Origin: a virus
DNA length: 64,000 nt
IMG/VR virus record: IMGVR_UViG_3300044627_003356
Strand: one strand, 5' to 3'
Every line of letters begins with the position of its first letter. Position 1 is the stretch's first letter. The notes under the pieces are model-generated. The model saw nothing but the letters and a program-made list of their open reading frames with translations. It was not told the DNA's origin and did not search any database. The position numbers and the translations under genes are program-made. Positions 26,250-57,154 of the stretch are shown in pieces.

Positions 26250-26402
26250 TTATGTGTTCAAATCTTCTGTTCCTGAGCCTTCATTTAAATCCTCGGAACC
26301 ACTTTGTAACATTAAATCGCCTTGGAGTGAAGGTAAAGGAATATAAGTAAACGCATTAGCTTGCTGAACATTACTGGCCATCATGGCCATAATACCACTC
26401 AT
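26250..26402 (-). CDS. unannotated 50-aa fibre adapter peptide
   Basis: MSGIMAMMASNVQQANAFTYIPLPSLQGDLMLQSGSEDLNEGSGTEDLNT; TAATG overlap with the upstream gene; C-half paralogous to the C-terminus of 36595..37980. Confidence 0.8.
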   Translation of the reverse strand: MSGIMAMMASNVQQANAFTYIPLPSLQGDLMLQSGSEDLNEGSGTEDLNT

Positions 26403-28249
26403 TACGAAACTCCTGTACCGTTAATAAACCAGGTGTTTGCCGCAACTTGAATTAATGTAGCCATACCATATGTAGTAACATTTCGTGAAGCGCTTGTTGT
26501 ATTGCCAGCAAGATACATTGTTACACCTGTATTTGGTGATACAGTTACATTGGCACCAGCTGATGTTGCAGAGATAATCATAATGGTTGAACCATTTGAA
26601 AATGCCACATTTGATGTTGTTGGAATATGCAATATCGTATTAGATGCTTGAGTGTAATAAATGTGTTTACCAGCATCAGTTAATTGTAATGTGTAATTTG
26701 TTGACTGTATATTTTGTGGAATTGTTTGTGCAGCTGCATTGGCTGAATTTCTAGCAACTTGGTCAATTGCAGTACCAGTAAATGCGGTGTTTTGAACAGA
26801 TGAATCTGGGAATACTATAGCACCATTGGCTTCAAAGGACCAAGTTTTACGGCCCGACAGAGCTGTTGCAATTATTTGTACATTACTAGTACCAGAAGAA
26901 ATTTCAACAGTTTTGTTTGGCGAATAAAATACAGCTTCGCTTATTGAAAGACTATCAAAATTTATTCGGCCTCCTGTAGGCATAGTTAATGTGCCAGTCG
27001 AACCAAGACTAACGGTGTTAGCACCATTGACTAAGCTACTAACGGTACGATTGTTGGAGGAATCAAAAGCTGATTGGGCTAAATTGGTTGCATTGGTAAT
27101 ATTAGTGTTTTGGGTTGTATTAACACCTTGAATAATTATAATATTATTTGAAGCTGTATTGGCAGTTGTTCGAGCATATGGATCTATTTGAGTATCTGAT
27201 ACAATTGTATTGGCATAATCATAAGCTGCTTGTGCCAAATTGATTGCAGAGTTTGCTTGGTTAGGTATCTCGATAACAATATTACCAACCATACCACCAT
27301 GAATTTCACATTGATAAACATAGGTATTTCCAGCCAATGCAGCTGGAACTTTCCAATAGAGTGTGCCAGATACTTGTGCTTGAGCACTTGATTCAGTAGA
27401 AACAACTCCAGTTGTTGATACATGTGTAAGACCAATATTATAAAGTGTACCGCCGGCCGATTCTCTTATCAAAAATGGATGACCTGTTACATTTAAATTA
27501 AAAGCAAGAGTTTCACCTGCTCGAATAAAAATATTAGGGTTATTACCTGTGTATTGGTCAAACAAATAAGAGCTTGCGCCAGAATTCGTTGTGTTTAATC
27601 GAGTAACAGAAGGTAAATAAACTGAATTTGCTTGATTAAATGCCGCCTGTGCTAAATTGGTAGCAGTAGTAATGTTGGTGTTTTGTGTAGTATCAACACC
27701 TTGAATAATACTAATAGAAGTATTTTGGTTTGCATTAATTGTTTCAATACTATTAATTCTGGTGTTTTGAGTGTCATTAACACCAGTCATAATACTAATA
27801 TTATTTGATGCAGTATTGGAAGAATCAAACGCTGACTGCGCCAGATTTGTTGCATTGGTAATATTGGTATTCTGTGTCGTATTAACACCTTGAATAATCG
27901 TAATATTATTTGAATTTGTATTGGCTGTATTACGAGCAAACTGGTCAATTTGGGTATCAGAAACAATTGTATTGGCATAGTTATAAGCTGCATTAGCTTT
28001 ATTATAAGCATTTTGAGCCAAATTATTTACAGTAATAACACCGGCTACAGCAGTATTGGCAGTTGTGCGAGCAAACTGGTCAATATTATTATCGGTCGCA
28101 GAATTTAATAATGCATATCCACCAGGAGTTGTACCATCATGAACTGTCAAAGTTTTGTTTGTATTATTAATAATCAATTCACCATTAGCGCCAGTTGTAT
28201 TTGCTAATGTGGCTGATCCTAGTCGTCTAAATTGTATTGTGCGAGACAT
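26402..28249 (-). CDS. fibre protein: Mtd_N-like head, stalk repeats, cupredoxin-like domain, C-terminal tip domain
   Basis: IQFRR...GELII...LTVHDGTTPGG; QGVxxTQNT repeats; GHPF...YQCEIHGGM. Confidence 0.75.
   Translation of the reverse strand: MSRTIQFRRLGSATLANTTGANGELIINNTNKTLTVHDGTTPGGYALLNSATDNNIDQFARTTANTAVAGVITVNNLAQNAYNKANAAYNYANTIVSDTQIDQFARNTANTNSNNITIIQGVNTTQNTNITNATNLAQSAFDSSNTASNNISIMTGVNDTQNTRINSIETINANQNTSISIIQGVDTTQNTNITTATNLAQAAFNQANSVYLPSVTRLNTTNSGASSYLFDQYTGNNPNIFIRAGETLAFNLNVTGHPFLIRESAGGTLYNIGLTHVSTTGVVSTESSAQAQVSGTLYWKVPAALAGNTYVYQCEIHGGMVGNIVIEIPNQANSAINLAQAAYDYANTIVSDTQIDPYARTTANTASNNIIIIQGVNTTQNTNITNATNLAQSAFDSSNNRTVSSLVNGANTVSLGSTGTLTMPTGGRINFDSLSISEAVFYSPNKTVEISSGTSNVQIIATALSGRKTWSFEANGAIVFPDSSVQNTAFTGTAIDQVARNSANAAAQTIPQNIQSTNYTLQLTDAGKHIYYTQASNTILHIPTTSNVAFSNGSTIMIISATSAGANVTVSPNTGVTMYLAGNTTSASRNVTTYGMATLIQVAANTWFINGTGVS
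27053..27988 (-). repeat. ~57-codon direct repeat pair (about 27053-27226 and 27816-27988) flanking the cupredoxin module
   Basis: AY(N/D)YANTIVSDTQID...IIQGVNTTQNTNITNATNLAQSAFDSSN occurs twice. Confidence 0.85.
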
Positions 28250-28261: not shown

Positions 28262-29353
28262 TTATTGTAAATCTATTGGATTTTCTTGTTCTATATGTAG
28301 GTCATCACGTCCAACTTGTTCCGTAACATCACCAACAAAATCTGGCGGTAAAACTAATCCTTCTTCAATATACGGTGCTTCTGATATTTGTGTTGTTACA
28401 ACATACGGTGTATTCACATTTGCATCCGTTGGCATTGGTGTGGTATCTATTTGCACCAACTTCTGTGCTATAGGTGAGAATGATGTAAACACATAGTTTG
28501 CACTGCCACTCGTGGACTGTATTGGTAAGTTCGACACAAAATTACCATTGATGTTTTTTAATTGTAAAATATTATTATTAAATGAAACCACTTTACCTGT
28601 GGCTATTGCCAGTGGTGCAGAGTAACCTTGATAAACTGTTTCACCAATCTGATATGTTCCAACTCCAGAACTAGGATTCATCGTAAACTGCACAATATCT
28701 TCTTCTGTAATTTGATTATAGATTGAAGTGATTGAGTGTGTAATTGGTCCACCAGTATCGGTGATTTTACCAAAGATGTGTCCTTTAACGGTGAAATTGA
28801 GTGTCCAAATAATAACTCTGGTATCTCTTTCGTAGTCACCTTCATAGTCAATATCTTGTGAAGTTGAATTGAGTACGATAGGAACATCTTTAACAATACC
28901 CATCTCAGGTATCATATTCAACTTCATTGTATAATCTGGAGTAAAGTAAGATAATACATGTTCAATGATTTGTGTACCATCTTCAATATTTCTGACATAC
29001 AGATATAAATTAAAATCAAAATTATACGGAACAGGATTATATTGTGACACCAAACCAGCACTAGTTTGTGCAAAGTTTTTAATATTGGTGTTTAATTTTC
29101 TAGTAGTATCGTAATTAAATCCTGTTAATTCAAACGACATTCTTGGCAATGTAATTTGCGTTTTTTTATTTAAATTTGGATCGGTTTCTAAACGAGTAAC
29201 ATAAGTTTCTTTTGGAGCATATACAATTGGCACAATCATTCGTTGCGCTTCAGAGAAATCTGGATTATATCGCACTAAGGTAATGTCGTTGAACAAATTA
29301 CCAAAACCTATTACATACTTTCTTAAAGCACGGTTATAAAAAGTATTGGCCAT
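28262..29353 (-). CDS. gp15: tail sheath stabiliser/terminator with C-terminal extension
   Basis: RKYVIGFGNLFNDI, VPI.YAPKE, TLPRMSFE, PVPYN, QIIE..L.YF.P. Confidence 0.93.
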   Translation of the reverse strand: MANTFYNRALRKYVIGFGNLFNDITLVRYNPDFSEAQRMIVPIVYAPKETYVTRLETDPNLNKKTQITLPRMSFELTGFNYDTTRKLNTNIKNFAQTSAGLVSQYNPVPYNFDFNLYLYVRNIEDGTQIIEHVLSYFTPDYTMKLNMIPEMGIVKDVPIVLNSTSQDIDYEGDYERDTRVIIWTLNFTVKGHIFGKITDTGGPITHSITSIYNQITEEDIVQFTMNPSSGVGTYQIGETVYQGYSAPLAIATGKVVSFNNNILQLKNINGNFVSNLPIQSTSGSANYVFTSFSPIAQKLVQIDTTPMPTDANVNTPYVVTTQISEAPYIEEGLVLPPDFVGDVTEQVGRDDLHIEQENPIDLQ

Positions 29354-32137: not shown

Positions 32138-32192
32138 TTGTGTACCTTTATTGTGTTTGCATAATAAATTATTTTTAACTACTTTATAATCA

Positions 32193-32200
32193 TATTTATA
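32193..32200 (-). promoter_or_regulatory. late promoter (APS-kinase-like gene)
   Basis: TATAAATA in the intergenic gap. Confidence 0.65.
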
Positions 32201-32846: not shown

Positions 32847-32860
32847 ACAATATCCTCAAA

Positions 32861-34626: not shown

Positions 34627-36561
34627 TCAATTGTACTTTTCTGTGGATGCTAGACTTGGGAAACTGCCGGTGCTGCCACCAAACGCTATACCGGTACCGG
34701 CTGCTGTGCCTGCTCCGCCATGTTGGAATCGGCCAGTCGTCAATGATCCAGTTGCGGTCCATGTGGATCCATTGTATGTTAGCGCTGCTGTTAATGCACC
34801 AGCGGAATTGCCGCCAAATATCAATCCATCAGTTTGTGTTCCGCTTCCGGCTGCACCCAATCGACCAGATGGTAAGGCTCCGCCTGCCGACCAGACGGCA
34901 CCGTTCCAATTTTCAGTAGACGTTATTGGCACAAACGAACCGTCAAGGCCGGCTGAGGTTACTGCAGCAGATTGTGTTCCAAACATAGCATTGCTCTGTC
35001 TGCCGGTGGCCAGATTTGTTGGCGGGCCCCCGGTGGACCAACTTGTTCCATCGTATATTACAACTGAATTAAGAACACCTGAGGGCCCCGATTTGCCACC
35101 AACACCCAGTGCTGCTGTCTGAGTTCCGCATCCTCCATGGCCATATCTAGCTGAGCCTAAGGATCCGCCGGAAGCCCATGCACTTCCATCATATTCTTGT
35201 GCAACAGTTAATGGCGCATACGCAGCACCGAGGCCGCCAAATGACAGTCCTGCAGATTGTGTTCCTGCCCCAGCATGATTCATTGTAACCGTTGGCAAAT
35301 TGCCTCCTCCAGACCATGTGGATCCATCATATTCTTCTGTTGCAGCAGATTGTGTGCCAGGGCCTGCTGGGCCCGCAATGTATCCTCCAAAGCCTAGTGT
35401 TGATGTTGGGGTGCCTGCTGCTGCTATCTTATCCCGTCCAGTACTCATGGTGCCGCCGGCAGACCAAGCAAGGACTGGTGGCGGTGGAGGCACGAAAGGT
35501 GTCAATGTTCTTGCAACAATGCTGGTGCGAACCACATCAAAAAATGTATTTGAATTTACTGGAGTTACTAACAAATTTACTATATTTGATGACAAATTAC
35601 TTGATACGGTATATAAACTTGTATTGGAACCTATTGTGTCATATTGAGCGATATAAACATCAGAATCGTTATGGCTTAACATTACTCCCATCGATTGAAC
35701 ATTTTGATAATTAATACCTTGTATAACATATCTGACTGTTCTGTAAAGTAGTGAGGAAAAAGAATCAATAACTTGATTAGCTGTGTTTGATGTTAAATTT
35801 GCTGTCTTGGTGCTTATTGAAGATATATTGATATTAACATTACCAGAAACGGTCAAATTTTGGTTAATTGTGACTGAATCGGTAAATGTGCCGCCCGTGT
35901 TTGCTTTGTTATAGGCACCGTTGGCAGTATCTCTGGCATATTGGTCTGATCCTCCAGTATTTGCTTGGTTATAAGCAGATTGAGCAAACTGATTAACTGC
36001 TGTGATTGTGGTATTTTGATTGCTATTAATAGTTTCAATACTATTCAATCTGGTGTTCTGTGTAAGATCAACACCTTGGATGACAGTGATACTGGTATTC
36101 TGATTGGTGTTAATGGTCTCAATTGAATTAATTCTGGTGTTTTGAGTTGTGTCAACACCTTGAATAATGGTAATGCTATTATTTTGATTGGTGTTAATGG
36201 TCTCAATTGAATTAATTCTGGTGTTTTGAGTTGAGTCTACACCGATGGTTACATTGGCTTGATTATATGCGCCACTCGCTAAACCGTTAGCACCATTGGC
36301 TGTGGTAAAAGCACCAGCTGCTAAACCATTAGCACCATTGGCTGTGGTAAAAGCACCAGCTGCTAAACCGTTAGCACCATTGGCTGTGGTAAACACATCA
36401 GAAACCCTATCATCTCTTGCAAGAATTATACCACCAGCTGTTGATCCATCACCAACAGTAACAGTTTTCTTTTGCGTATCAACAAACAGCTCACCCGATG
36501 CAGGCGTATTTGCAGTAATTTCTGCTGTTGTTCCACGTCTTAGTTGTAGTGTCTTTGCCAT
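34627..36561 (-). CDS. fibre protein: Mtd_N-like head, stalk, Kelch-like beta-propeller tip
   Basis: LQLRRG...GELFVD...VGDG.T.GG; six repeats of GT.T.A..FGG...TEEYDG..W..GG after a poly-Pro linker. Confidence 0.8.
   Translation of the reverse strand: MAKTLQLRRGTTAEITANTPASGELFVDTQKKTVTVGDGSTAGGIILARDDRVSDVFTTANGANGLAAGAFTTANGANGLAAGAFTTANGANGLASGAYNQANVTIGVDSTQNTRINSIETINTNQNNSITIIQGVDTTQNTRINSIETINTNQNTSITVIQGVDLTQNTRLNSIETINSNQNTTITAVNQFAQSAYNQANTGGSDQYARDTANGAYNKANTGGTFTDSVTINQNLTVSGNVNINISSISTKTANLTSNTANQVIDSFSSLLYRTVRYVIQGINYQNVQSMGVMLSHNDSDVYIAQYDTIGSNTSLYTVSSNLSSNIVNLLVTPVNSNTFFDVVRTSIVARTLTPFVPPPPPVLAWSAGGTMSTGRDKIAAAGTPTSTLGFGGYIAGPAGPGTQSAATEEYDGSTWSGGGNLPTVTMNHAGAGTQSAGLSFGGLGAAYAPLTVAQEYDGSAWASGGSLGSARYGHGGCGTQTAALGVGGKSGPSGVLNSVVIYDGTSWSTGGPPTNLATGRQSNAMFGTQSAAVTSAGLDGSFVPITSTENWNGAVWSAGGALPSGRLGAAGSGTQTDGLIFGGNSAGALTAALTYNGSTWTATGSLTTGRFQHGGAGTAAGTGIAFGGSTGSFPSLASTEKYN
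36278..36393 (-). repeat. 42-bp tandem repeat, about 2.8 copies
   Basis: Encodes (F)TTANGANGLAAGA repeats; near-identical DNA. Confidence 0.9.
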
Positions 36562-36591: not shown

Positions 36592-36599
36592 TATTTATA
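36592..36599 (-). promoter_or_regulatory. late promoter
   Basis: TATAAATA followed by AAGGA SD. Confidence 0.75.
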
Positions 36600-37980
36600 T
36601 ATTTAAATCTTCTGTTCCTGAACCAATATTCAAGTCGTCCGTTCCACTTTGTGTCATTAAGTCACCTTCGATTCCACTCAAAATTCTTGCAACTAAACTG
36701 GTGCGAACAAAGTCTATTGTTGTGTCCGTTTCCACTGGAGTAATATCAAGAATTACATTTCCAGAAATAATATATGAATCTAAATTAAATAGAATGCTGC
36801 TTGAATATACGGTACCATATTCCAACATGAATACATTAGTATCATTGTGGTTCAATATTACTTCAGTAGAATGAACATCGATTCCAGATACACCTTGAAT
36901 TAAGTATTTTGCGGTTCTATATTCAGTAGTTGAAAAAGTATCAAATATTTGATTTGCCGTGGATGTTGAAAACGTTGCCGTATTATTATACAATGCAGAC
37001 AATGCTGGCAATATAATAATACCGTTAGATTCAAGACTAAAAGAAGCGGTGTTGTTTGTTAAAACCGATATTGTATTGGCGTAGTTATAAGCATTTTGAG
37101 CCAATGTTAAAGCTGAGTTTGCGACACCAAAAGATGATTGTGCATACTGATTGACCGCAGTAATGTTGGTATTTTGTGCTAAATCAACACCTTGAATAAT
37201 ACTAATGGCTGAATTCTGTGTTAAATCGACACCTTGAATAATTGTAATGTTACTAGCGTTCGTATTAGCTAACGAGAAAGCGGAGTTAACTCTGTCTGTA
37301 TCAGCAATTCTAAAGAAATTTGTGCCATCGTTAGTGAATTTCCACGCATGGTCTGTTTCACTCCATTTCAATACTGTATTTGTTTCACTTCCACGATTAA
37401 TTTCAATACCGGCATCAAGTGTTGGAACACCAGTTACATTTGAATTCAATGTAATGATATTGTCTTTAACAAGTAACTGTTCTGTGTTCGCATAAAATGT
37501 TGTTCCAGTAACACTTAAATTACCGGTTACGTTAACATTACCAGAGATTGTTCCACCTGATGAATTGAATTTGTTATTGGCAGTAGCATAAGCAGCTGCA
37601 GCAAATTGATTTACTTCAGTAATTGTGGTATTTTGGCCTAAATTAACACCTTGAATGACAGCAATCGCATCAGCATTGGTATTAGCTTTATTAAATGCAC
37701 CAGCAGCCAGACCATTAGCACCATTAGCAGTATTAAAAGCACCTGCAGCAAATCCATTGACTGCTGTAATATTGGTGTTTTGAGTAGAATTGATGCCTGC
37801 AATTATAGAAACATTAGATTCTAATTGAGATTTAGTGATTAAATAATTTCCGCCAACCGTGGTACCATCATGTATCGTTAATGTTTTTTGATCGGTGTCA
37901 ACGGTAACTTCAGCAATAACACCGGTAAACACCGCCGTTTGAGCTGTATTCCCTCGTCTTAGTTGTAATTGTGTGGCCAT
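36595..37980 (-). CDS. fibre protein with Mtd_N-like head and triple-DL C-terminal peptide
   Basis: MATQLQLRRG...IHDGTT.GG; C-terminus GDLMTQSGTDDLNIGSGTEDLNI. Confidence 0.75.
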   Translation of the reverse strand: MATQLQLRRGNTAQTAVFTGVIAEVTVDTDQKTLTIHDGTTVGGNYLITKSQLESNVSIIAGINSTQNTNITAVNGFAAGAFNTANGANGLAAGAFNKANTNADAIAVIQGVNLGQNTTITEVNQFAAAAYATANNKFNSSGGTISGNVNVTGNLSVTGTTFYANTEQLLVKDNIITLNSNVTGVPTLDAGIEINRGSETNTVLKWSETDHAWKFTNDGTNFFRIADTDRVNSAFSLANTNASNITIIQGVDLTQNSAISIIQGVDLAQNTNITAVNQYAQSSFGVANSALTLAQNAYNYANTISVLTNNTASFSLESNGIIILPALSALYNNTATFSTSTANQIFDTFSTTEYRTAKYLIQGVSGIDVHSTEVILNHNDTNVFMLEYGTVYSSSILFNLDSYIISGNVILDITPVETDTTIDFVRTSLVARILSGIEGDLMTQSGTDDLNIGSGTEDLNI

Positions 37981-38016: not shown

Positions 38017-39165
38017 TTAACCCACGGTGCCGTAATCAAATGAAGATGTTGTTGCATCCAAGTCAAATCCTGCATCAAATATTGCCGTTACTGGATCCCC
38101 AACAAATCCTAAAGAACCTGAAGGAGCTTCAACACCTATTCTAGCTATTGCGTTTCTAATGAAAGCTACGGTTACCGAACTGTTGGTTGGTGTAAACAAA
38201 ACATTTAATGTTGTTCCAACAATGGAACCAGTAAATGAACCTAAAGATGAAGAAGAATATGCATCACCAAAAGTATTTGCAAAAACTGTAATACCATTGT
38301 GAATTATATTTAAGTTCAACATATGAAATTCACTTGGACTGGAAAGTTGAACTTGATAGAAAGCACTTCTATATACAGAAGTTGAAAAAGAATCTATTGT
38401 AACTTGACTGGTATCTGTTAAATCTATTGTATTTGCAGATATATTTGTATTTGCAGTTAGATTTATAGCTTTAACACCAATGGTTCCTGTTGATGGATTA
38501 AATGTTAAATTATTATTTGATGTAAATAATGTGTTTGCAGTGCCTGATGTATTAGCAGTAAAGTTAATATAGTATACATTATTTGAAGTATTATCATTAG
38601 AAATTGTTACTGTTGTACCACCGCCGCCGCCAGTATTCGCTTGATCGTAAGCCGATTGTGCAAATTGGTTAACAGCCGTAATTTGTGTATTTTGCCAAGA
38701 ATCAACGCCTTGCGTTATGATAGTATTGGCTGAAGCTGAATTGGCAGTATCTCTAGCAAACTGATCCGTTGAAGATACAATAAGAGTATTGGCATAATTG
38801 TAAGCATCTTGAGCTAATGTTAATGCTGAGTTTCCGGTGTTTCTCGCAAACTGGTCCACATCAGCATCTTGAGAATTAATTGTGATTGTTTTTGTTGATG
38901 TGCAAGCTGAAATGGTAATATTATTACCAGGAACAATTGACAAAGTATCTGTAGGAGATGTTGCAAGAATTAAAGAACTGTTTGCATTGATTGTTGCAAA
39001 CGAATCAGTAGTTGAACCACTTTGAATGTAAGTGATAGAACTGTTAGCAGCTTTGTAATACAGTTTTCCATCGGCGTAGTTTAACGCCAACTCACCAAAT
39101 TCTAGTGAAGAAGGTACATTACCTGTTACGCCTGATTTTTTTAACTGTAGTGTTGTATTTGCCAT
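38017..39165 (-). CDS. fibre/adapter protein
   Basis: LQLKKS...GELALNYADGKLYYK head; C-terminus SLG...DAG...DYG. Confidence 0.7.
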   Translation of the reverse strand: MANTTLQLKKSGVTGNVPSSLEFGELALNYADGKLYYKAANSSITYIQSGSTTDSFATINANSSLILATSPTDTLSIVPGNNITISACTSTKTITINSQDADVDQFARNTGNSALTLAQDAYNYANTLIVSSTDQFARDTANSASANTIITQGVDSWQNTQITAVNQFAQSAYDQANTGGGGGTTVTISNDNTSNNVYYINFTANTSGTANTLFTSNNNLTFNPSTGTIGVKAINLTANTNISANTIDLTDTSQVTIDSFSTSVYRSAFYQVQLSSPSEFHMLNLNIIHNGITVFANTFGDAYSSSSLGSFTGSIVGTTLNVLFTPTNSSVTVAFIRNAIARIGVEAPSGSLGFVGDPVTAIFDAGFDLDATTSSFDYGTVG

Positions 39166-39169: not shown

Positions 39170-39721
39170 TTAAAAACTTCCGCCATCCTTTGTTGTATCA
39201 TCATTAATAGGTAAAACAGACGACTCTTTCAGTACTTCCAAAACTTTATTTTCTTCTTCTAATTTCTTACGCTTGGCAGGAGTTAATTGTAAATATTCAA
39301 TTTGATTAGTTAATTCTTTAATTTGATTTTCAAAATTTGTACGAGTTTTTTGGTGTTCTTCTCGTTCTTTATTTAATTCATCACGAAAAACATTAACATG
39401 TTGAACTTGGTGTTTAACATTTTCATATTCAGTTTTCATCCTATTCAACTCTGCCATTTGAACATTTAAATGATTAATGGTATCTAAATGTCCTTTGACA
39501 GCGCTTTCAAGATTATTAATTTTAGATTCAATTTCTTGATTTTTATCAGTTTTAATTGATTCTAAATTACTTTTTAATTCTTCAATTCTTTTTACTTGCT
39601 CATTAATAACATCTTCAGTAACTCTTGCATTAGCTTGTAGAGATATGTTTCTGATAACTGCATCAGTCATTGTACTAGTTAATATCTCTACATAATAATT
39701 TAAATACTTGTTGTTATCCAT
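39170..39721 (-). CDS. coiled-coil protein ending DGGSF
   Basis: Heptad-rich sequence; C-terminal DGGSF. Confidence 0.7.
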   Translation of the reverse strand: MDNNKYLNYYVEILTSTMTDAVIRNISLQANARVTEDVINEQVKRIEELKSNLESIKTDKNQEIESKINNLESAVKGHLDTINHLNVQMAELNRMKTEYENVKHQVQHVNVFRDELNKEREEHQKTRTNFENQIKELTNQIEYLQLTPAKRKKLEEENKVLEVLKESSVLPINDDTTKDGGSF

Positions 39722-39759: not shown

Positions 39760-41958
39760 TTAAAACTGGCCTCCATCTAAAGCCGTTGTCCATACAGGAA
39801 CACCAGCATTAGTAACGGTTAATATCTGATTGGACCAGGTTTGGTCTGCACCACCTGCAGCCGCAGTTACACCAACTGCACCGGTTCCATTACCATATGT
39901 GATGCCGTTTTGTGTGATTGTGGATAGACCTGTACCGCCTTGGCCAACTGTCAGTCCACCAATCGCAGCCACAGTAGCAGCAGTAAACCTTCCGTATGCA
40001 TCAACAGTAATGCTTGTGATTGTATTATTGGAAGTAAGTGTGCCTGTTTGAGTATATGTTGTATTGCTGAGTGATTGCAAGCCAGAGGCACCAGCAATTA
40101 ACAATCCACCAGTTGTATAACTTGTTGATCCTGTACCTCCACGGTCATATCCTAATGTACCAGAAGTAATTTGTGAGGTAGAGATTGCAATAGAAGTGTT
40201 TGATACTGCAACAACACGACCATATACATCCGTTTCAAAGGCAGCAACAGAAGATGCTGAACCAAAGGTTTGACCAATAGCAACAGATGAGTTAGCAATC
40301 TGTGTCAGTCCATTTACACCAGAACCGATGACAATTTGACCTGATGTAAACGAGGTTACACCTGTACCACCATTTGGTACTGTAAGTGCATTGTTGAGTG
40401 CTAATGTGTTTGCAGTAATTGTAGTCAGATATGCTGGTCTACTAATTACAAATTCGGCTGGTGTGAAGTAAGCAACGTCTGTGCTGTCTGCATAGAAATG
40501 GACATTACCATCTGCATTACTGAACATACCAGAATCGTTGTCGCCTTCTGTACCACTAAATGAATAACCACCAGCAGTATTAGCACCTTGTGCCGCTAGA
40601 ATTTTGCCTGCTGCTTCTAATGTACCATCATTTCCAAATGTCCAAACATGAGCATTGTTTGCACGAATGTATACTTCTTTTGCACCATCGCTTACTTGAA
40701 CATTAGTTTGTTCACCACCCAAATACAATTCAGCACTAGAGGCATCAATTGTACCTCCAGCACGAACATGAATATGCCCGTTTGCTGTTGGATCAAGAAT
40801 GATGTATTGGTCATTGACACCTGGACCATAATTGACACTTGGTGCTAATAAGAGTGTGTTGTTGGTTGTGTCACCAAAAATACGGTTTGCAACATATATT
40901 GTATTGGCTTGAACTGTATCGCCAATTGTGTTGCCTTTGAAATATGCTGCAGTAACATTGGCTTCACGATATGATGGGTCACTTAGGTTGATGTTGTTGT
41001 TTGCATCAAGTTCACCAGTATAACCTTGGAAGAAATGATATTCTTTTGTGCTGGAATCACGAATCAAACCTGTGTGAGCATTAGAACCATCATTGTAGTG
41101 TGAAGCAAAACCAATATCAAATGTGTCGGAGAAATAATTACCAACACCTAAAAGGAGTAATGGATCTTGAATTTCAAATTGTACAATATTTAATGTTGAG
41201 GTATTACCAAATACAATTAAATTACCGGTAACAGTTAAGTCATTATTTGCACCAATCGTTAAGTTGGTGTTGATTGTTTGTGTGCCACCAGTAAAGGCAT
41301 TGGCACGAACAACTGTGTCATCAACATCAAAAGTTACTGTGTCGGTTGCACTTGCAGTAGAAGTAATACCGGCACCACCAACGAGTGTTAGTGTGTCGCC
41401 ACCAGAAACGGTTTGTGATGCACCAGAATCGGCTGCAACAGTAAATGATGTAGAAATTGCTGCGGTTGTAACATTCATTACACGGCCGTTTGCGGCCACC
41501 TGAATAACTGGAATTTCTGTTGTGGAACCGTATGTACCAGCACCAAGGCCAGGAACCGCATTAAGAGAAGTATTGAGAGTTACATCAGCAGTACCATTAA
41601 AACCAACGGCTGAAGCGGTGATATCACCACCACTAATTGAGAAGTTTCTAGAATTCTCTAATTGAAGAGCAGAATTTGCAGTACCTTGGATAGTACCAAT
41701 AATATTTGCAGTAATGAAATTAAATGATGCATTACCTGTTGCATCTCGTTTAACTAGTGTTGATCCGGTAGCTGCATCGGTCGCATTATCGACCTGAGAA
41801 GTGTAGTATTGACCACCAACATTGACAACACCGTTGCCTGTAGGTGAACCAATGAATATTGTGTTTGAGGCATAAGAATACGCCAATTCACCAGCAAGTA
41901 ATGAACCTGGTCTTCCAATTGAACTGGAACGTTTGATTAAAATATTAGTATTGGCCAT
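39760..41958 (-). CDS. long fibre protein
   Basis: ILIKRS...GELAYS head; GGTG and D.YGR fibre repeats; ends LDGGQF. Confidence 0.75.
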   Translation of the reverse strand: MANTNILIKRSSSIGRPGSLLAGELAYSYASNTIFIGSPTGNGVVNVGGQYYTSQVDNATDAATGSTLVKRDATGNASFNFITANIIGTIQGTANSALQLENSRNFSISGGDITASAVGFNGTADVTLNTSLNAVPGLGAGTYGSTTEIPVIQVAANGRVMNVTTAAISTSFTVAADSGASQTVSGGDTLTLVGGAGITSTASATDTVTFDVDDTVVRANAFTGGTQTINTNLTIGANNDLTVTGNLIVFGNTSTLNIVQFEIQDPLLLLGVGNYFSDTFDIGFASHYNDGSNAHTGLIRDSSTKEYHFFQGYTGELDANNNINLSDPSYREANVTAAYFKGNTIGDTVQANTIYVANRIFGDTTNNTLLLAPSVNYGPGVNDQYIILDPTANGHIHVRAGGTIDASSAELYLGGEQTNVQVSDGAKEVYIRANNAHVWTFGNDGTLEAAGKILAAQGANTAGGYSFSGTEGDNDSGMFSNADGNVHFYADSTDVAYFTPAEFVISRPAYLTTITANTLALNNALTVPNGGTGVTSFTSGQIVIGSGVNGLTQIANSSVAIGQTFGSASSVAAFETDVYGRVVAVSNTSIAISTSQITSGTLGYDRGGTGSTSYTTGGLLIAGASGLQSLSNTTYTQTGTLTSNNTITSITVDAYGRFTAATVAAIGGLTVGQGGTGLSTITQNGITYGNGTGAVGVTAAAGGADQTWSNQILTVTNAGVPVWTTALDGGQF

Positions 41959-41993: not shown

Positions 41994-42000
41994 TATTTAT
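41994..42000 (-). promoter_or_regulatory. late promoter
   Basis: ATAAATA overlapping the stop of the 66-aa gene. Confidence 0.65.
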
Positions 42001-42197
42001 GTAAATGTACCACCGTCAACCACATTTATGGTAACGTTGGCGATGTAATTTGGACCGCCTATTTCTACTATTTGACTATCTCTACTGCCAATAAACAACG
42101 TATTTGAAGCAAACGAATACGCTAACTCACCATCATCCAGTGTTGTTGGTCTAGTATTTGCATATGACCGAAGAATTTGTATGGTTGTATTGGCCAT
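41997..42197 (-). CDS. minimal adapter (head domain plus DGGTF tail)
   Basis: Paralogous to the N-terminus of 39760..41958 (GELAYS.ASNT.FIGS); ends VDGGTFT. Confidence 0.75.
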   Translation of the reverse strand: MANTTIQILRSYANTRPTTLDDGELAYSFASNTLFIGSRDSQIVEIGGPNYIANVTINVVDGGTFT

Positions 42198-42431: not shown

Positions 42432-42773
42432 TTAAAACTTGGTGACTTGAGGAATAACATTCACGATTCCTTCTAATACTCTAGTCACGGTGTTTGCGGT
42501 GTCTTTAATTGCCACGTCATATACATAACGACCAGCTGCAATATTCGATGTCGTGTTTGCGTTTAATATTAAATTAATGTTACCATCTGTTGGTGTTGGT
42601 ATAATAACAATGAACTCTGCGGTTGTATTGGCAGAATAATACGATTTACGAATTTGACTTTTAGCGGTTGCACCAGTTAAATCAAAAGGAACGCCATCAA
42701 TATCATCTAATGTAATATTAGTGGTAAATGTGGTTCCTTGTTCTAAAAATAACTCTTGATATGCTGCAGCCAT
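42432..42773 (-). CDS. virion structural / fibre-attachment protein
   Basis: LEQG.TF...DLTG.TA.SQIRKSY...GRYVYDV...TRVLEG.V.V.P.VT, common in environmental T4-likes. Confidence 0.7.
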   Translation of the reverse strand: MAAAYQELFLEQGTTFTTNITLDDIDGVPFDLTGATAKSQIRKSYYSANTTAEFIVIIPTPTDGNINLILNANTTSNIAAGRYVYDVAIKDTANTVTRVLEGIVNVIPQVTKF

Positions 42774-52600: not shown

Positions 52601-54244
52601 TTAAGCTGATTGGACTGCTACAAATGTATTTGCTAAATCACCATCAATACTGAAATATTTTAGGTATGCAGAACTAGTTGAAGCCATCGTAAATGTGGTG
52701 GAATTTTCACTTGAATTAGTTGCTGAACATCCATGTGTAATGGTTCTAGTTGAACCACTCGTATTGATTAACCAAACTTCAACCACTTTACCAGCAACAA
52801 AATTTGTAAGTGTAAATGTTAAGTCAGCTGCTAAATTGGCTTTGATAACTACATCACTTGAAAAATCGATTGTAATGGCCGTTTGATTACCAACAGGTAG
52901 TCGTGGTGTAAAAATGAAACCCTTTGTTGGATTAACTGTACCAAGGAATTCAGCCGAATCTGCATTGAATGAAGCAATTTCTTGTAGTGTGTTTGAACCT
53001 ACAGGAGTATTCCAGAACTCAATACGAGTACCACGATTAGTATCACTAAAATTTTCTGCTGCCACAAAATCAATCTTTGTGGGACTAGAAGATGGAAACT
53101 GTGTGCCTGTCCAACCGTTGCCAACAACTCGGAATATCACATCATTGTTTGCTACTGCGACTGGTGCTGCGGCTGATCCTCGACCCATACGACCAGCTAC
53201 CAAAGGATAGGTGTTTGCACCAAAACTATCTAAAACAACACGAGTTACAGAATTGGCTTTGCCAGTAACGTGCAACATATAGTTGGTGTTTGATGGAGCC
53301 TGAGTAACAAAACCATCGCTTGAGGTAATTTTAACAAATGCGGTGTCGGTAGCAAATGATGAATTGTTTAAACTGATTGTACCAGTAGTTAATACATTAC
53401 CTGTAATAGTCAAATCACCAGCAAAAGTACCTGAAGTATTTGCTAATGCGTTATTTGCTTTAGTGAAAGCTGCCCATGCATGGTTGTTAGCAGTAGTTAT
53501 GTTTGTATTCTGTGCGAGATTGACACCTTCAATGATAGAGATGCTGGTATTTTGATTGGTGTTGATGGTTTCAATAGAATTTAATCTGGTGTTCTGTGTA
53601 GCATCAACACCTTGTGTAATAATTGTATTTGCTTGTGCAGCTAAAGTAACCGCAGCTGGCGATGCAGCCGTATTTTGTGTTGTTGAATCACTAAATTGTA
53701 ATGGTATACTTAATTTTAAATTCCCATTATCTTCTACTCTAACAGCTTCAGCAGCAATCGTGTGTGAACCTGTATAGAAAACAATATCATTATTTGAATT
53801 GTGTGTGCCTATCCACAAATTTCCATATACTTCACCATCTTTACCATGCATACAAATGAAGCCATCACGGTTAGGCAAATCAAATTCAGCATCATAGTCC
53901 ATATTTGAACCACGAATACCCATATTAATAAATCCATTGGCTTCATCACCATCATCCGTAGCAATTACAATCTGACCAGTACCTTTTGGATTGATGTTCT
54001 GAAAAAATACTCTAGAACTAGGTGCTGTATTACTAACGAATTGTGCAATCGCATCAGCATATATTGTGGTTGCAGATGTTCCAACATTCAATACATTGTT
54101 TGCAAATAGTCCTCCAGCCAATGTGGTGGTTGAAAACTGTGAAGTTGTATTGGTGGTCTTATCTACGGCAACAAACACGGTATTGGCATTATTAGCCGAT
54201 AACTGGTTTAATATTGGTAGTTCTGATATCTTGACTGACGGCAT
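52601..54244 (-). CDS. fibre protein
   Basis: MPSVKISELP head; shared QGVDATQNTRLNSIETIN stalk. Confidence 0.7.
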   Translation of the reverse strand: MPSVKISELPILNQLSANNANTVFVAVDKTTNTTSQFSTTTLAGGLFANNVLNVGTSATTIYADAIAQFVSNTAPSSRVFFQNINPKGTGQIVIATDDGDEANGFINMGIRGSNMDYDAEFDLPNRDGFICMHGKDGEVYGNLWIGTHNSNNDIVFYTGSHTIAAEAVRVEDNGNLKLSIPLQFSDSTTQNTAASPAAVTLAAQANTIITQGVDATQNTRLNSIETINTNQNTSISIIEGVNLAQNTNITTANNHAWAAFTKANNALANTSGTFAGDLTITGNVLTTGTISLNNSSFATDTAFVKITSSDGFVTQAPSNTNYMLHVTGKANSVTRVVLDSFGANTYPLVAGRMGRGSAAAPVAVANNDVIFRVVGNGWTGTQFPSSSPTKIDFVAAENFSDTNRGTRIEFWNTPVGSNTLQEIASFNADSAEFLGTVNPTKGFIFTPRLPVGNQTAITIDFSSDVVIKANLAADLTFTLTNFVAGKVVEVWLINTSGSTRTITHGCSATNSSENSTTFTMASTSSAYLKYFSIDGDLANTFVAVQSA

Positions 54245-54247: not shown

Positions 54248-57154
54248 TTACCCCGCTAATATTGTGATGCCTGATTCTGTTATTAAAATGTAACCACTCT
54301 CTGTTAATAATTCTGGATATTCATAAAATCCTATGACACCATAGACCAAACAAGTTTCTGTGTTTGCTGATTTATCAACTGTAATTAATGCGTTATTTAC
54401 TGGCCCAAATGAGTTATTAGCAAGGTACAAATTACCATTTGCAAATACCTGTGTGACGGTGTAATAAGGACCGCCATTTAAAGAAACTTTATCTCCAGCA
54501 AAAATAATATTGTTGGCTGGTGTTTTGTTGGTAAAATTACCATCAAATTGACCAGTAACCGATTGTATATTTATCACATTTGAGGAGGCGTTTGCTGATC
54601 CAGTAGCAACATTTGCAAAGACTACAAAGACATTATCCTGCATTGTCACCTGATTGTTGGCCCAATCCACATTTGTAATCGTAGAGTAAGCTCTCAGGTT
54701 ATTTGTGGCAGTATATTCAATGATGTCGTTTGCAAAGACGGTGTTACCAATATTGGCGGAGATTGTATTGACAAACCGAATAATATTGGTGCTGATTTGA
54801 CCAGCCTGAGTATTTGCTTCAATGCGGGCCAGAGCAGACGGACCAGCAAAGGTGTCCATATGATAACCTTCTTGGAATGAAGTTTGAGTGTTCATTGAGA
54901 ACCCGTTGGAACTTATTAACAAGTTCCGCCCTCTTAGGTTCATACCAGAAGGATGTAATAGATTCAATACTAAATCTTTGTATGTTTTAAGTGCTTTCTC
55001 AACCGATAAAACATAAGTGAAGTTATTATAATCAAGACTTTCAAGTACCAGTCCTAAAGAAGAAAGATGGCCATCATCATTCAGATAGGTACCAGCACCT
55101 ATAATCAAACCATCTAAAAATGATGCATTAGCCCTTGCATTACCATCACCATATCGAATAATACTTGTTGGACTACCAGTAGTTTTATCGGTGTAGGCAT
55201 TCTGTGGGTCTAAAACCAACAAAGAAGATACATTAGAAATGTTGTGGTCAATCTTGATTGAAAGTGCAGCATCATAATTTCCTGTATAATCATATGTTCT
55301 TAATTGATATATGTCGGCTGCCGTATTTGCTGGAGATGCCGTTGAAATTTTGAATACAGAAGCTACGTTGGCTTTATAAGTGGCCACATTAAATGTTGCA
55401 CCTTGATACATGACATCACCAGCCAAAGGAAAATCTAATGGTGAAACGTTACTTACTGCAACATCGGCTACTTTTAGATAAACATTTGGTGTTGAAACAT
55501 AATCTTCACCAGGATTAATAATGTTGATGGATGTAACTGAGCCCGTTCTATCGGTTGTAGGTGTTAAAATTGCATCAGCACCCATAATTCCTGTGACAAC
55601 AAGTGACGCATTAGAACCTGTGCTACTTGTGACTGTGATTGTGGGTAAACTATCTTTTGTATAGCCTAACCCACCTAAAGGAAATGATTGATTTGTATTG
55701 TTGTTGGCATAAACATATCGTGCATTGATAATTGAACCAGCCGTATTAACAGTTACATTGGCAAATGCTCCAACACCCGTGCCGCCAGTAATTAATACTG
55801 TGTTTGCATTACCATATCCTTGGCCACCATTTAATACTTGAATTGGTTGAAGTATGCCAAGGAAACTAAGTGAATCAGTTCCTACATCAGTTGTATACAA
55901 AGAACTTACATCGACAGCAGGTGCAGAAGAATATCCTCCACCTTGATTGGTAACTTGTATTGAACCGATTGGTCCAACTTGTAGAGTTCTAAAAGTTAAA
56001 GTGTCACGCAAAGTAGAATTTGTGTTTGCGCTGACGGCAAATGATGTATATGTCTGAGCAAAGGTTGAATTTCCAATTGCAACATTAGCTACAATGCCTA
56101 ATGTGTTACTTGTAATAAGTGTAACATTGGCTAATCTAGCATCATCTAATAAATTAATTCTAGCAGCGGCACCGGTACCACCGCCGCCAGAAAATGTGAT
56201 GGCTGAATTTGGAAATACTCTATAACCATGAGAAGGGTCAGTTACAACTAAACTCTCAATAGATCCTGTTGTTGTTCGACCAACTTCTGCTGTTGCACCA
56301 ATCGGGTTTGTTACATCAGGACTTAATCCACCAACAACAATAACTGGATCGCCAGGTTCATAGAACAATCCTCGATTTCTTGGATTAATTGTTATAGAAG
56401 ATAAAACACCTACAACTTTACCTCTAAGTATTGTGGCGCCAGTTGGTATACTTACACCTTGATTTTGAATGTATACTTCACCATTATAGAAGTATACATC
56501 AAGATTATTATTATCCACAACACGGACAAACTCACCAGATTCAAACAGACGTTGAATGTTTGAGATGAAAACTTCTGTTTTATCTCCTACTGCCGCAGAA
56601 TAATCAACTGTTGCATATGACTGTGAGGTTTCACCAAACAACCTTAAGCTGTTAATTTGTAACCAATTCAAATCAACCGAATTGATTCGTAATGATTTAG
56701 ATACAATCCATTTACCATCAGAAGCTTTTAATATTACATCTGATGTATTGAAAATCTCGGCCTGTGAATCATACAATGCACGAAATAAAAACTGATATGA
56801 TTTCTCAGTACCTTTTGAAAGATAAAACTCTTTTGCAATCTTTAACAGTTTTCTTTTATCTGTTAGAGCATCTTCTGGTATATAAGGTAGAAAATCTTTT
56901 AGAAAGTATGAAACAAAACCATCTAATGTAGAATCCACATCCATATAATTGAGTAGATTCTTGGCACCATAAGTTACACCTTCACCACTTGTATTGGCTG
57001 TCGTAACGGATCCGTTGGCTGAGTAAGCAGTTTCTAACCATTCATAGTATGCCTGAATAAAATCAACAAAAGTGGAATAGTTAATATTATCCCGAACAAA
57101 TTCGGGAAGCTGCTGAGGAATCAGTAGTGATGTTTTATAATCGTTCGGTATCAT
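54248..57154 (-). CDS. gp7: baseplate wedge initiator (gp7-like)
   Basis: QLPEFVR..Y..FV.F..AYYEW, FY.SKGT..SY.FLFR.LY, SDGKW, Y..F.YV...LLHP.G; follows gp6. Confidence 0.8.
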   Translation of the reverse strand: MIPNDYKTSLLIPQQLPEFVRDNINYSTFVDFIQAYYEWLETAYSANGSVTTANTSGEGVTYGAKNLLNYMDVDSTLDGFVSYFLKDFLPYIPEDALTDKRKLLKIAKEFYLSKGTEKSYQFLFRALYDSQAEIFNTSDVILKASDGKWIVSKSLRINSVDLNWLQINSLRLFGETSQSYATVDYSAAVGDKTEVFISNIQRLFESGEFVRVVDNNNLDVYFYNGEVYIQNQGVSIPTGATILRGKVVGVLSSITINPRNRGLFYEPGDPVIVVGGLSPDVTNPIGATAEVGRTTTGSIESLVVTDPSHGYRVFPNSAITFSGGGGTGAAARINLLDDARLANVTLITSNTLGIVANVAIGNSTFAQTYTSFAVSANTNSTLRDTLTFRTLQVGPIGSIQVTNQGGGYSSAPAVDVSSLYTTDVGTDSLSFLGILQPIQVLNGGQGYGNANTVLITGGTGVGAFANVTVNTAGSIINARYVYANNNTNQSFPLGGLGYTKDSLPTITVTSSTGSNASLVVTGIMGADAILTPTTDRTGSVTSINIINPGEDYVSTPNVYLKVADVAVSNVSPLDFPLAGDVMYQGATFNVATYKANVASVFKISTASPANTAADIYQLRTYDYTGNYDAALSIKIDHNISNVSSLLVLDPQNAYTDKTTGSPTSIIRYGDGNARANASFLDGLIIGAGTYLNDDGHLSSLGLVLESLDYNNFTYVLSVEKALKTYKDLVLNLLHPSGMNLRGRNLLISSNGFSMNTQTSFQEGYHMDTFAGPSALARIEANTQAGQISTNIIRFVNTISANIGNTVFANDIIEYTATNNLRAYSTITNVDWANNQVTMQDNVFVVFANVATGSANASSNVINIQSVTGQFDGNFTNKTPANNIIFAGDKVSLNGGPYYTVTQVFANGNLYLANNSFGPVNNALITVDKSANTETCLVYGVIGFYEYPELLTESGYILITESGITILAG

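What the first reader, a model, noticed from the sequence alone, without database searches (positions are those of the whole stretch)
26250..54320. Peptide plug-and-socket code for branched virion fibres
Seen: six proteins begin with a related Mtd_N-like head (IQFRR/LQLRRG/LQLKKS/ILIKRS/IQILRS, most followed by GEL), and each is directly preceded in transcription order by a gene ending in a short acidic peptide. The chain reads 42422 (LDAGFF) > 42197 (head, VDGGTFT) > 41958 (head, LDGGQF) > 39721 (KDGGSF) > 39165 (head, SLG-x10-DAG-x10-DYG) > 37980 (head, GDL-x6-DDL-x6-EDL) > 36561 (head, Kelch tip, no tail). Separately, gp15 (GDV-x6-DDL-x7-IDL) > 28249 (head). Tail class tracks head class: single D[GA]GxF precedes the S-type heads (LRS/KRS/KKS), and triple motifs precede the RR-type heads. 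A further pair may be gp7 ending LLTESG-LITESG-ILAG before the fibre starting MPSVKISEL. Inference: tails dock into the next protein's trimeric head. One motif per chain of a trimer would extend linearly, while three motifs per chain could each hold a whole trimer, giving a branched, swappable fibre tree whose wiring is written in gene order.
Basis: partly seen in the sequence, partly recalled or inferred. Interest (0 to 1): 0.88.

Follow-up and report, generated by a model that had tools for sequence, protein, structure and literature searches.

The report
Snap-together connectors of phage fibres
In this uncultured T4-like phage, each fibre protein ends in a short tag matching the small cap domain that starts the next protein; the same tag-and-cap pairs recur in many unrelated phages, so they look like an undescribed docking code, though binding is so far only predicted.

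Summary
All six heads and every listed tail are at the stated coordinates. Only 4 of 907 six-frame ORF segments end in D[GA]GxF, and all four lie in one 3.3-kb cluster.

The pattern extends far beyond this phage. In 2.4 Mb of fetched loci I found 307 unique head/upstream-tail pairs.
- 132 of 147 S-type heads follow a DGGxF-type tail.
- Mtd-type heads follow D[YFL]Gx[ILV]x or DL-type tails. Examples are Bordetella phage BPP-1 Bbp9>Mtd, HTVC008M, P-HM2, a P22-like Pseudomonas phage, a T7-like cyanophage, Vibrio phages and prophages.
- Six head subclasses pair almost one-to-one with six tail subclasses.
- Tails sit on at least 18 unrelated protein cores, including known virion anchors.
- Proteins at the end of a chain have a head but no tail.

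A 3:3 complex model scored ipSAE 0.72, against 0.30 for the best control. It pairs the KDGGSF tail with the head's LQLKKS strand.

Docking is therefore well supported but not measured. Branching through triple motifs is untested. Gene order is not the only wiring rule, and the Kelch tip was not confirmed.

The scan noted this connector before on other DNA. I found no paper describing it.

The parts
42432..42773 (-). 113-aa protein that precedes the first tail-bearing gene. It may be the baseplate-side root of the chain.
   Evidence: Weak BppU_N hit (E 0.006, below cut-off). It is 36% identical (E 3e-23) to the P-HM2 protein at the same position before its chain. The same trio occurs in Ralstonia phage PY059YO380.
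42198..42422 (-). 74-aa protein with no head and a T1 tail, LDAGFF.
   Evidence: T1 tails (D[AS]GFF) precede IQILRSY heads in 23 unique pairs.
41997..42197 (-). 66-aa mini-adaptor made only of an H1 head (MANTTIQILRSY..GEL) and a T2 tail (VVDGGTFT).
   Evidence: About 25 orthologues of 64-78 aa are listed. Analogous head-plus-tail mini-proteins occur in prophages L100, L122 and L135.
39760..41958 (-). 732-aa fibre with an H2 head (MANTNILIKRS..GELAYSY), a foldon-like hairpin and a T2 tail (..VPVWTTALDGGQF).
   Evidence: About 50 unique orthologues keep the tail. The next gene is the coiled coil, not a head.
39170..39721 (-). 183-aa coiled-coil protein with a variable linker and a T3 tail, KDGGSF.
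   Evidence: Only coiled-coil-type Pfam hits. The last 6 residues are conserved after a variable linker in about 60 relatives. The modelled interface uses its last 10 residues.
38017..39165 (-). 382-aa protein with an H3 head (MANTTLQLKKSG..GELALNYADGKLYYK) and a triple I-type tail (SLG..DAG..DYGTVG).
   Evidence: In many relatives only the first 80-180 residues are conserved. It is the head in the complex model.
36595..37980 (-). 461-aa protein with an Mtd_N head (MATQLQLRRGNTAQ..FTG) and a triple DL tail (GDL-x6-DDL-x6-EDLNI).
   Evidence: Pfam Mtd_N E 1.5e-10. Matches Mtd 1yu0 residues 1-60 at E 2.8e-8. It is preceded by FDYG-type tails in relatives.
34627..36561 (-). 644-aa chain-terminal protein with an Mtd_N head (MAKTLQLRRGTTAEIT) and no tail.
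   Evidence: Pfam Mtd_N E 4.4e-11. It is preceded by EDLNx tails in 4 of 4 unique pairs. Kelch was not confirmed.
28262..29353 (-). gp15 tail sheath stabiliser with a roughly 130-aa C-terminal extension and a triple DL tail (GDV..DDL..IDLQ).
   Evidence: PF16724 E 3e-67 over residues 5-227. The tail is conserved in about 30 relatives, directly before the fibre gene.
26402..28249 (-). 615-aa fibre with an Mtd_N head (MSRTIQFRRL..GANGEL) and a conserved C-terminus, ANTWFINGTGVS.
   Evidence: Pfam Mtd_N E 2.8e-6. Orthologues range from 154 to 636 aa and keep both the head and the C-terminus.
26250..26402 (-). 50-aa ORF that overlaps the fibre's stop codon (TAATG). It has the leader MSGIMAMMASNV and a triple DL tail, GDLMLQSGSEDLNEGSGTEDLNT.
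   Evidence: In relatives the gene at this position starts MSGMMAMMASNV and continues for 200 aa or more with varied bodies. Its tail is nearly the same as that of the 461-aa protein.
54248..57154 (-). 968-aa protein at the gp7 position, ending in the repeat LLTESGYILITESGITILAG.
   Evidence: Weak Baseplate_wedge hit. It lies upstream of gp8 (PF09215). The L.TE.G..L.TE.G..IL.G ending is conserved in 25 unique relatives.
52601..54244 (-). 547-aa fibre with a third kind of head, MPSVKISELP.
   Evidence: The start M.[ST]VKI[ST][EQD]LP is conserved directly after the gp7-position gene (gap 3 nt) in relatives.

Best explanation
These genes encode virion fibres assembled from separately made pieces. 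The proposed joint is a short C-terminal peptide of one piece that docks on the small N-terminal cap of the next piece. The cap is either a true Mtd_N domain or an Mtd_N-like S-type head.

In the model, each tail strand lies parallel to the head's first beta-strand (the xQLKKS / xQLRRG motif) at a subunit interface. The last aromatic residue sits in a pocket lined by the invariant Ser11 and Pro18. Three tails would cap one head trimer.

Tail class matches head class:
- D[AS]GFF goes with IQILRSY.
- [V/I/F]DGGxF goes with ILIKRS.
- KDGGxF or DDF goes with xQLKKS..NYADGKLY.
- D[YFL]Gx[ILV]x goes with Mtd-type heads.
- EDLNx goes with KTLQLRRGTTAE.
- xDL[QG]x on gp15 goes with RTLQFRRY.

In this phage that gives two assemblies.
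- A baseplate-side chain: 74 aa > 66-aa adaptor > 732-aa fibre (plus the 183-aa coiled coil) > 382 aa > 461 aa > 644-aa tip.
- A set anchored at the neck: gp15 > 615-aa fibre > 50-aa adaptor > probably the same 644-aa tip.

Shown: the motifs, their conservation, their pairing and their polarity. Predicted: the interface. Inferred: the order of assembly, the stoichiometry, and the role of the repeated motifs.
For: 1. Adjacency. 307 unique head/upstream-tail pairs were found in 2.4 Mb of loci. Of 147 S-type heads, 132 follow an F-type tail. Mtd-type heads follow 41 I-type and 27 DL-type tails. Among 2738 background ORFs of at least 100 aa, 73 have an F-type tail, and most of these are the 732-aa fibre family, which lies one gene away from a head.

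2. Pairing by class. The table of six head subclasses against six tail subclasses is nearly diagonal.

3. Independent lineages. BPP-1 Bbp9 (..ADLGGIA) precedes Mtd, which is reported to sit at the ends of the tail fibres (PMC2408619). Other cases are HTVC008M, CRP-3, P-HM2, Ralstonia and Vibrio phages, and alpha- and gammaproteobacterial prophages carrying the same code.

4. Portability. Tails sit on at least 18 unrelated protein cores. These include known virion anchors: the P22 Head_binding domain in AH02 gp14, the T7 tail-fibre N-domain in S-TIP37 gp40, and gp15.

5. Polarity. Of head proteins directly followed by another head gene, 48 of 52 carry a tail. A further 110 head proteins that are not followed by a head gene carry none. 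Mini-proteins made only of a head and a tail exist.

6. Complex model. ipSAE was 0.72 (runs 0.74, 0.72, 0.70), against 0.30 for the best of 3 controls. That mark was reached by 58 of 80 solved complexes and 2 of 110 mismatched pairs; these counts hold only roughly here because my own alignments and 3+3 chains were used. The runs share at least 91% of their contacts and the partner pLDDT is at least 64. The interface is tail residues 31-40 with head residues 1-11, 16-19, 22 and 27.

7. Not recalled from a solved structure. By sequence, the PDB holds only apo Mtd for these heads.

8. Covariation. Within the H3 family, the tail and the head motif change together: KSGGTF with KNSG, DDF with KKSA/S..P, and KDAGxF with KRSS.
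Against: - Binding has not been measured. The single complex model used my own alignments and a 3:3 design unlike the tool's calibration set.
- Most pairs are orthologous, so the counts overstate the number of independent observations.
- There are exceptions. S-CAM3, S-SSM7 and Sf-FS3 have tails ending ..YVVII, and Phosso is also atypical. In S-CAM7 and ACG-2014f an HNH gene sits before the head. L007 is another exception. Many small Mtd_N proteins in bacterial MAGs have no upstream partner.
- This phage has more tails than heads: four F-type tails for three S-type heads, and two EDLN tails for one matching head.
- The 732-aa fibre's tail never directly precedes a head, so its target is unknown.
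- Homology of S-type heads to Mtd_N is not supported: no Pfam hit, hhalign probability 3%, and Z 2.5 to 1yu0.
Confidence: 0.72

Rival explanations
1. The tails and heads are independent end-caps of fibre proteins. Each would be a folding or trimerisation element acting within its own protein, like a foldon. They would lie next to each other only because fibre genes are clustered.
For: The fibre tails follow a foldon-like hairpin (..NAGVPVWTTALDGGQF). Fibre genes are indeed clustered. The tail of the 732-aa fibre is not followed by a head gene.
Against: Tails also end proteins that are not fibres: gp15, the P22 Head_binding domain, a 50-aa ORF, and coiled coils where the tail follows a variable linker. 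Chain-terminal proteins have heads but no tails, and chain-initial proteins have tails but no heads. Tail class tracks the downstream head rather than the protein that bears it. The model puts the tail on the head.
Confidence: 0.08
2. The tails are docking or recognition signals for something other than the next head. Candidates are a shared baseplate socket, an assembly chaperone or a protease. Under this reading the heads attach elsewhere.
For: The phage has more tails than heads. The coiled-coil protein and the 732-aa fibre both carry DGGxF tails before a single head gene. Vibrio phage 172P1 has three tails for two heads.
Against: A shared receptor does not explain six tail classes that each pair with their own head class. 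It does not explain head-plus-tail mini-adaptors. It does not explain tails on anchors from myo-, podo- and siphoviruses that share no baseplate parts. No candidate chaperone gene travels with the pairs.
Confidence: 0.07
3. The motif is a by-product at the nucleotide level. A ribosome-binding site or translational-coupling signal for the next gene would happen to encode D-G-G.
For: GAT GGA GG contains GGAGG. Two junctions have gaps of 0-4 nt.
Against: The four tails use different codons (GAC GCA GGA, GAC GGT GGT, GAT GGA GGC, GAT GGC GGA). Two lie 38 nt upstream of the next start, and those gaps contain their own purine-rich sites. The terminal Phe and the flanking residues are conserved at the protein level.
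Confidence: 0.01

Closest known systems
Bordetella phage BPP-1 Mtd N-terminal beta-prism (Pfam Mtd_N PF18454; PDB 1YU0)
   Same: The three RR-type heads are true Mtd_N domains. Mtd sits at the ends of the tail fibres (PMC2408619) and is presumed to attach through this prism (PMC10743442). The upstream fibre gene bbp9 ends in the same tail class..ADLGGIA.
   Different: No partner peptide or docking rule has been described for Mtd_N in the papers I could search. The S-type heads are not detectable members of the family. Here the domain is used serially, up to six times in one virion, and also in 66-aa adaptors.
Anchor / branching-domain / conserved-peptide RBP systems of Klebsiella podophages KP32, K11 and KP34 (PMC6872550, PMC13352976)
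   Same: A short conserved peptide on one receptor-binding protein docks on a dedicated domain of another. This gives modular, swappable, multi-RBP tails.
   Different: The polarity is reversed. There the plug is the N-terminal peptide of the distal RBP and the socket is a T4gp10-like domain in the proximal one. No such domain was reported by Pfam here. Here the links form chains of up to six pieces.
T4 long tail fibre (gp34-gp35-gp36-gp37) and the gp10-gp11-gp12 network
   Same: Fibres are built end to end from separate gene products encoded in order within a T4-like virion module.
   Different: To my knowledge the T4 joints use specific domains without a reusable, class-coded peptide and cap pair. 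None of the T4 fibre families was detected in these proteins.
Virion-anchor domains of tailspikes and fibres (P22 Head_binding PF09008; T7 tail-fibre N-domain PF03906)
   Same: They hold receptor-binding proteins on the particle. In AH02 and S-TIP37 they are the bodies that carry the tail peptide.
   Different: They bind the tail machine itself. The tail and head pair acts one step further out and is independent of tail type.

Membership tests
Mtd_N (Pfam PF18454) | Match to the Pfam profile above its gathering score (26.3 bits): RR-type heads | tested here: met
   26402-28249 scored 27.6 bits, 34627-36561 scored 43.0 bits and 36595-37980 scored 41.3 bits. phmmer matched Mtd 1yu0 residues 1-60 at E 2.8e-8.
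Mtd_N (Pfam PF18454) | Match to the Pfam profile above its gathering score: S-type heads (38017-39165, 39760-41958, 41997-42197) | tested here: not met
   No Pfam hit at E up to 0.01-0.1. hhalign of the RR profile against the H3 profile gave probability 3%, although the alignment was in register.
Mtd_N (Pfam PF18454) | Trimeric beta-prism fold of about 45 residues at the extreme N-terminus | tested here: inconclusive
   All heads start at residues 1-5. The monomer AF2 model had pLDDT 76. Foldseek found no match. VIA-align to 1yu0 gave Z 2.5, rmsd 3.3 over 43 residues, model 6-49 against chain 5-49.
Mtd_N (Pfam PF18454) | Attaches a distal receptor-binding protein to a tail fibre | not testable with these tools
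   Only predicted here: ipSAE 0.72 against 0.30 for the best control.
Klebsiella-type branched RBP system | T4gp10-like branching domain in the proximal RBP | tested here: not met
   No such domain appears among the Pfam hits for any protein of the region.
Klebsiella-type branched RBP system | Conserved N-terminal docking peptide on the distal RBP | tested here: not met
   For the head and tail pairs the conserved peptide is at the C-terminus of the proximal protein. The MSGMMAMMASNV leader after the gp15-anchored fibre is the only element with that polarity.
T4 gp15 tail sheath stabiliser (PF16724) | Profile match over the core | tested here: met
   E 3.2e-67 over residues 5-227. The C-terminal 130 residues and the tail are an addition conserved in relatives.

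The most novel reading that the evidence does not exclude
The tail and head pairs form a general, readable wiring code for phage fibres and possibly fibres of other viruses. The tail class names the head it recruits, wherever that head is encoded.

The number of motif repeats would set the stoichiometry. One motif per chain of a trimer would give a coaxial joint. A triple-motif tail would let a single chain hold a whole trimeric fibre by wrapping round one head trimer. That would apply to a subunit of hexameric gp15 or to the 50-aa adaptor. It would solve the six-fold to three-fold symmetry mismatch and allow branching.
Probability: 0.3. Interest if true: 0.9.

Novelty: new variant of a known kind. 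Interest (0 to 1): 0.8.

Why it matters
If the code holds, the architecture of virion fibres could be read from gene sequences alone: which protein hangs on which, in what order, and at which anchor. Most uncultured phages have unannotated fibre genes, so this would be widely useful.

It would also explain how Mtd, the model diversity-generating receptor-binding protein, is held on its fibre.

It would explain how distal receptor-binding modules can be exchanged behind a conserved 40-residue cap. Downstream bodies range from 97 to over 2000 aa behind the same head.

Finally, it offers a small, defined peptide and domain pair for structural and biochemical study.

Tried and rejected
- Shine-Dalgarno or translational-coupling artefact: rejected.
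- Megablast of 12 kb against cultured phages found nothing. The phage is uncultured, and its gp15 is only about 40% identical to cyanophage gp15.
- No whole genome is held for the window.
- A 15-sequence head alignment was too diverse for a locus scan. A 6-sequence alignment worked.
- Foldseek of the H3 head monomer against the PDB gave no significant match. VIA-align wide gave only Z up to 3.7, with Mtd at Z 2.5.
- hhalign of S-type against RR-type heads gave probability 3%.
- No fused forms, with a tail motif followed by a head within one ORF, were found in 2.4 Mb.
- BLASTP of the 74-aa protein against the 73-aa protein at the same position in P-HM2 gave no alignment. Only the preceding 113-aa genes are homologous.
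- Pfam found no Kelch domain in the 644-aa protein.
- Literature searches for Mtd_N with tail fibre, for docking, for cryo-EM of T4-like cyanophages, and for the motif strings found no description of the tails.
- The PNAS 2010 BPP-1 cryo-EM paper is not held.
- A second complex job, to compare cognate with non-cognate pairs or to test a triple-motif tail, was not possible because the cap is one job.
Full report
**What the window is.** All genes in 23-57 kb lie on the minus strand and form the structural module of a T4-like myovirus. Identified genes are:
- gp15 (PF16724, E 3e-67)
- a gp14-like neck protein
- gp8
- a 2085-aa DUF4815 protein
- a fibre with a Peptidase_S74 chaperone.

gp15 is about 40% identical to cyanophage gp15. 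Megablast finds no cultured relative.

**Check of the observation.** Of 907 six-frame ORF segments of at least 30 aa, only four end in D[GA]GxF(x0-2). These are the four named genes, which lie together at 39170-42422. The motif occurs six times in 60,845 residues.

Six proteins start with the head. Pfam calls three of them Mtd_N. One matches residues 1-60 of Mtd (1yu0) at E 2.8e-8. The three S-type heads (IQILRS, ILIKRS, LQLKKS) give no Pfam hit.

A nucleotide-level cause is excluded. The tails use different codons and lie 0 to 38 nt from the next start.

**Relatives of the same clade.** Eighty IMG/VR loci were found with the 382-aa protein. In nearly all of them, a coiled-coil protein ending KDGG[ST]F sits 0-15 nt before a gene starting MxNTxIQLKKSG..GELALNYADGKLYYK. 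In the more distant loci the ending is KDAGxF, KSGGTF, DDF or NEF. The linker before the last six residues is not conserved.

An HMM of the six heads found the other junctions in the same loci:
- D[AS]GFF before the 65-78-aa IQILRSY adaptors
- [V/I/F]DGGxF before ILIKRS fibres
- FDYGxxx before TQLQLRRGNTAQ heads
- EDLNx before KTLQLRRGTTAE heads.

Often only the first 80-180 residues of the 382-aa protein are conserved. The proteins behind a given head range from 97 to more than 2000 aa. This is what a conserved cap on exchangeable bodies would look like.

**Other lineages.** tblastn with an RR head hit very different cultured phages. The gene upstream of the Mtd-type head ends as follows:

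| Phage | Upstream C-terminus |
|---|---|
| BPP-1 Bbp9 | ADLGGIA |
| HTVC008M | VDLGSVA |
| Roseobacter phage CRP-3 | FDFGSI |
| T7-like cyanophage S-TIP37 | IDFGTL |
| Pseudomonas phage AH02 | VNLGGLA |
| Vibrio 1.021.A | IDYGLV..LDYGSVA |
| Syntrophomonadaceae phage | FDFGMI..QDWGSLT |

The exceptions are S-CAM3, S-SSM7, Sf-FS3 and Phosso.

AH02 gp14 is a P22 Head_binding domain plus the tail. S-TIP37 gp40 is a T7 tail-fibre N-domain protein plus the tail. So the tail sits on bona fide virion anchors. The following protein has no other recognised anchor.

Mtd is reported to sit at the ends of the BPP-1 tail fibres (PMC2408619). It is presumed to attach through its N-terminal prism (PMC10743442).

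Eighty loci from bacterial genomes gave about 24 more cases. Many have two motifs with a 13-residue period, as in DYGLIT-x8-DYGSIA. These loci also contain many small solitary Mtd_N proteins with no upstream partner.

Prophages of a Thiosymbion, Aquibium, Oricola and a Flavobacteriales MAG contain whole chains of 65-105-aa head-plus-tail adaptors. They obey the same rule: DGGxF/Y before S-type heads and DYGSIA before RR heads. There is one exception, in L135.

S-type heads also occur after DGGxF/Y tails in these cultured phages:
- Prochlorococcus phage P-HM2, which has the same module as the window
- Ralstonia phage PY059YO380
- two Vibrio Zobellviridae
- siphovirus S-CBS2.

**Numbers.** Over all 262 sources (2.4 Mb) there are 307 unique head/upstream-tail pairs.
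- 132 of 147 S-type heads follow an F-type tail.
- RR heads follow 41 I-type, 27 DL-type and 1 F-type tail.
- 73 of 2738 background ORFs have an F-type tail. Most of these are orthologues of the 732-aa fibre.
- The table of six head subclasses against six tail subclasses is nearly diagonal.
- Tails sit on at least 18 unrelated protein cores.
- 48 of 52 head proteins directly followed by another head gene carry a tail. A further 110 that are not followed by one carry none. The 53 with a tail but no following head are almost all the 732-aa family.

These counts are inflated by orthology. The independent lineages above carry the weight of the argument.

**Structure prediction.** I modelled three copies of head residues 1-110 of the 382-aa protein with three copies of the last 40 residues of the coiled-coil protein, each with a 59-row alignment.
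- ipSAE was 0.72 (runs 0.74, 0.72, 0.70) against 0.30 for the best of three controls.
- That mark was reached by 58 of 80 solved complexes and 2 of 110 mismatched pairs. These counts hold only roughly for this design.
- The runs share at least 91% of their contacts, and the partner pLDDT is at least 64.
- The interface is tail residues 31-40 (DDTTKDGGSF) against head residues 1-11, 16-19, 22 and 27.
- Tail residues 35-40 run parallel to head residues 5-11 (TLQLKKS). The terminal Phe touches residues 10, 11, 16-18 and 27. Ser11 and Pro18 are invariant in the head alignment, and the Phe is the only invariant tail residue.

By sequence, the PDB contains only apo Mtd for these heads, so the model is unlikely to be recalled from a solved complex.

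Within the family, tail and head motifs change together: KSGGTF with KNSG, DDF with KKS[AS].P, and KDAGxF with KRSS. These are probably only a few evolutionary events.

**The neck set.** The roughly 365-aa gp15 of about 30 relatives ends GD..-x6-DDL-x7-..DL[QG]x, directly before a fibre that starts M[SP]RT[LI]QF[KR]R[YLF]. That fibre is 154-636 aa long and ends ANTWFINGTGVS.

The next gene overlaps the stop codon and starts MSGMMAMMASNV. In relatives it continues for 200 aa or more with varied bodies. In the window it is the 50-aa ORF, whose tail GDLMLQSGSEDLNEGSGTEDLNT nearly repeats the tail of the 461-aa protein.

This suggests a fourth kind of joint: the ANTWFINGTGVS end with the MSGMMAMM start. 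It also suggests that the 644-aa protein, the only head of the EDLN-matching class, is recruited at two places. That is inference.

**The gp7-position pair.** The ending L.TE.G..L.TE.G..IL.G is conserved directly before M.[ST]VKI[ST][EQD]LP heads in 25 unique relatives. I did not look for this pair outside the clade.

**What remains open.**
- Branching was not tested. Two-motif tails with a fixed 13-residue period are the commonest multi-motif form in my reading (not tallied). This fits a hairpin on one head, or two heads per fibre, as well as a wrap-around arrangement.
- The target of the 732-aa fibre's tail is unknown, and so is the role of the coiled-coil protein, which carries its own tail. 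In L135 the coiled-coil gene has no tail, and the fibre's tail is the only candidate for the next head.
- S-type heads cannot be filed under Mtd_N.
- Kelch was not confirmed.

**Prior notes and literature.** The scan's notebook shows the same connector noted and partly supported on other genomes, namely giant viruses and other marine phages. I did not check those claims. Searches of the held literature found no description of the tails. The closest described system is the branching-domain and conserved-peptide docking of Klebsiella podophages, which has the opposite polarity.

**Verdict.**
- Observation: confirmed.
- Docking: well supported by comparison and by one controlled prediction, but not measured.
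- Branched-tree reading: open.

Noticed in passing
window 26250-26402 and 26402-26440; loci L182-L231: This looks like a further junction type. The gp15-anchored fibre ends ANTWFINGTGVS in almost all relatives. The overlapping next gene (TAATG) always starts MSGMMAMMASNV and then diverges into unrelated bodies, including LamG-like and RCC1-like sequences.
   Followed up: partly
loci L103-L173 (bacterial MAGs: Ca. Enterousia, rumen Alphaproteobacteria, Saccharibacteria): Dozens of small proteins of 150-200 aa start with a perfect Mtd_N head (MSRQIQIRRGTAAEH.NFTGAIGEITMDTT) but have no tail-bearing upstream gene. Their context and function are unknown.
   Followed up: no
window 31304-33628: Three genes lie between the fibre and neck genes: a P-loop kinase-like protein (MKKILIMGLPGSGKT), a mid-sized ORF, and a protein with a sulfotransferase-like PRSGNT motif. 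I did not check it.
   Followed up: no
window 42895-44703: A 602-aa fibre with a C-terminal Peptidase_S74 intramolecular chaperone (E 1e-9). It has neither a head nor a tail, so it probably attaches by another route.
   Followed up: no
L179 and L181 (Synechococcus phages S-CAM7 and ACG-2014f): An HNH endonuclease gene sits directly upstream of a giant S-type-headed protein of about 4000 aa, where a tail-bearing gene would be expected. This may be a mobile-element insertion at the junction.
   Followed up: no
L081 10062-11951 (HTVC008M gp063): This may be another head type, MADKVPIRTVFDSSGNATGLAEYQSGE, preceded by a protein ending ..ERALFSF. The protein itself ends VDLGSVA, before the Mtd-type head.
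   Followed up: no
L177 1540-4776 (Vibrio phage 172P1): Two paralogous headless anchors of 146 and 173 aa both end in DGGxY. They are followed by one head-plus-tail adaptor and one headed RBP. That makes three tails for two heads, so adjacency alone cannot give the wiring.
   Followed up: no
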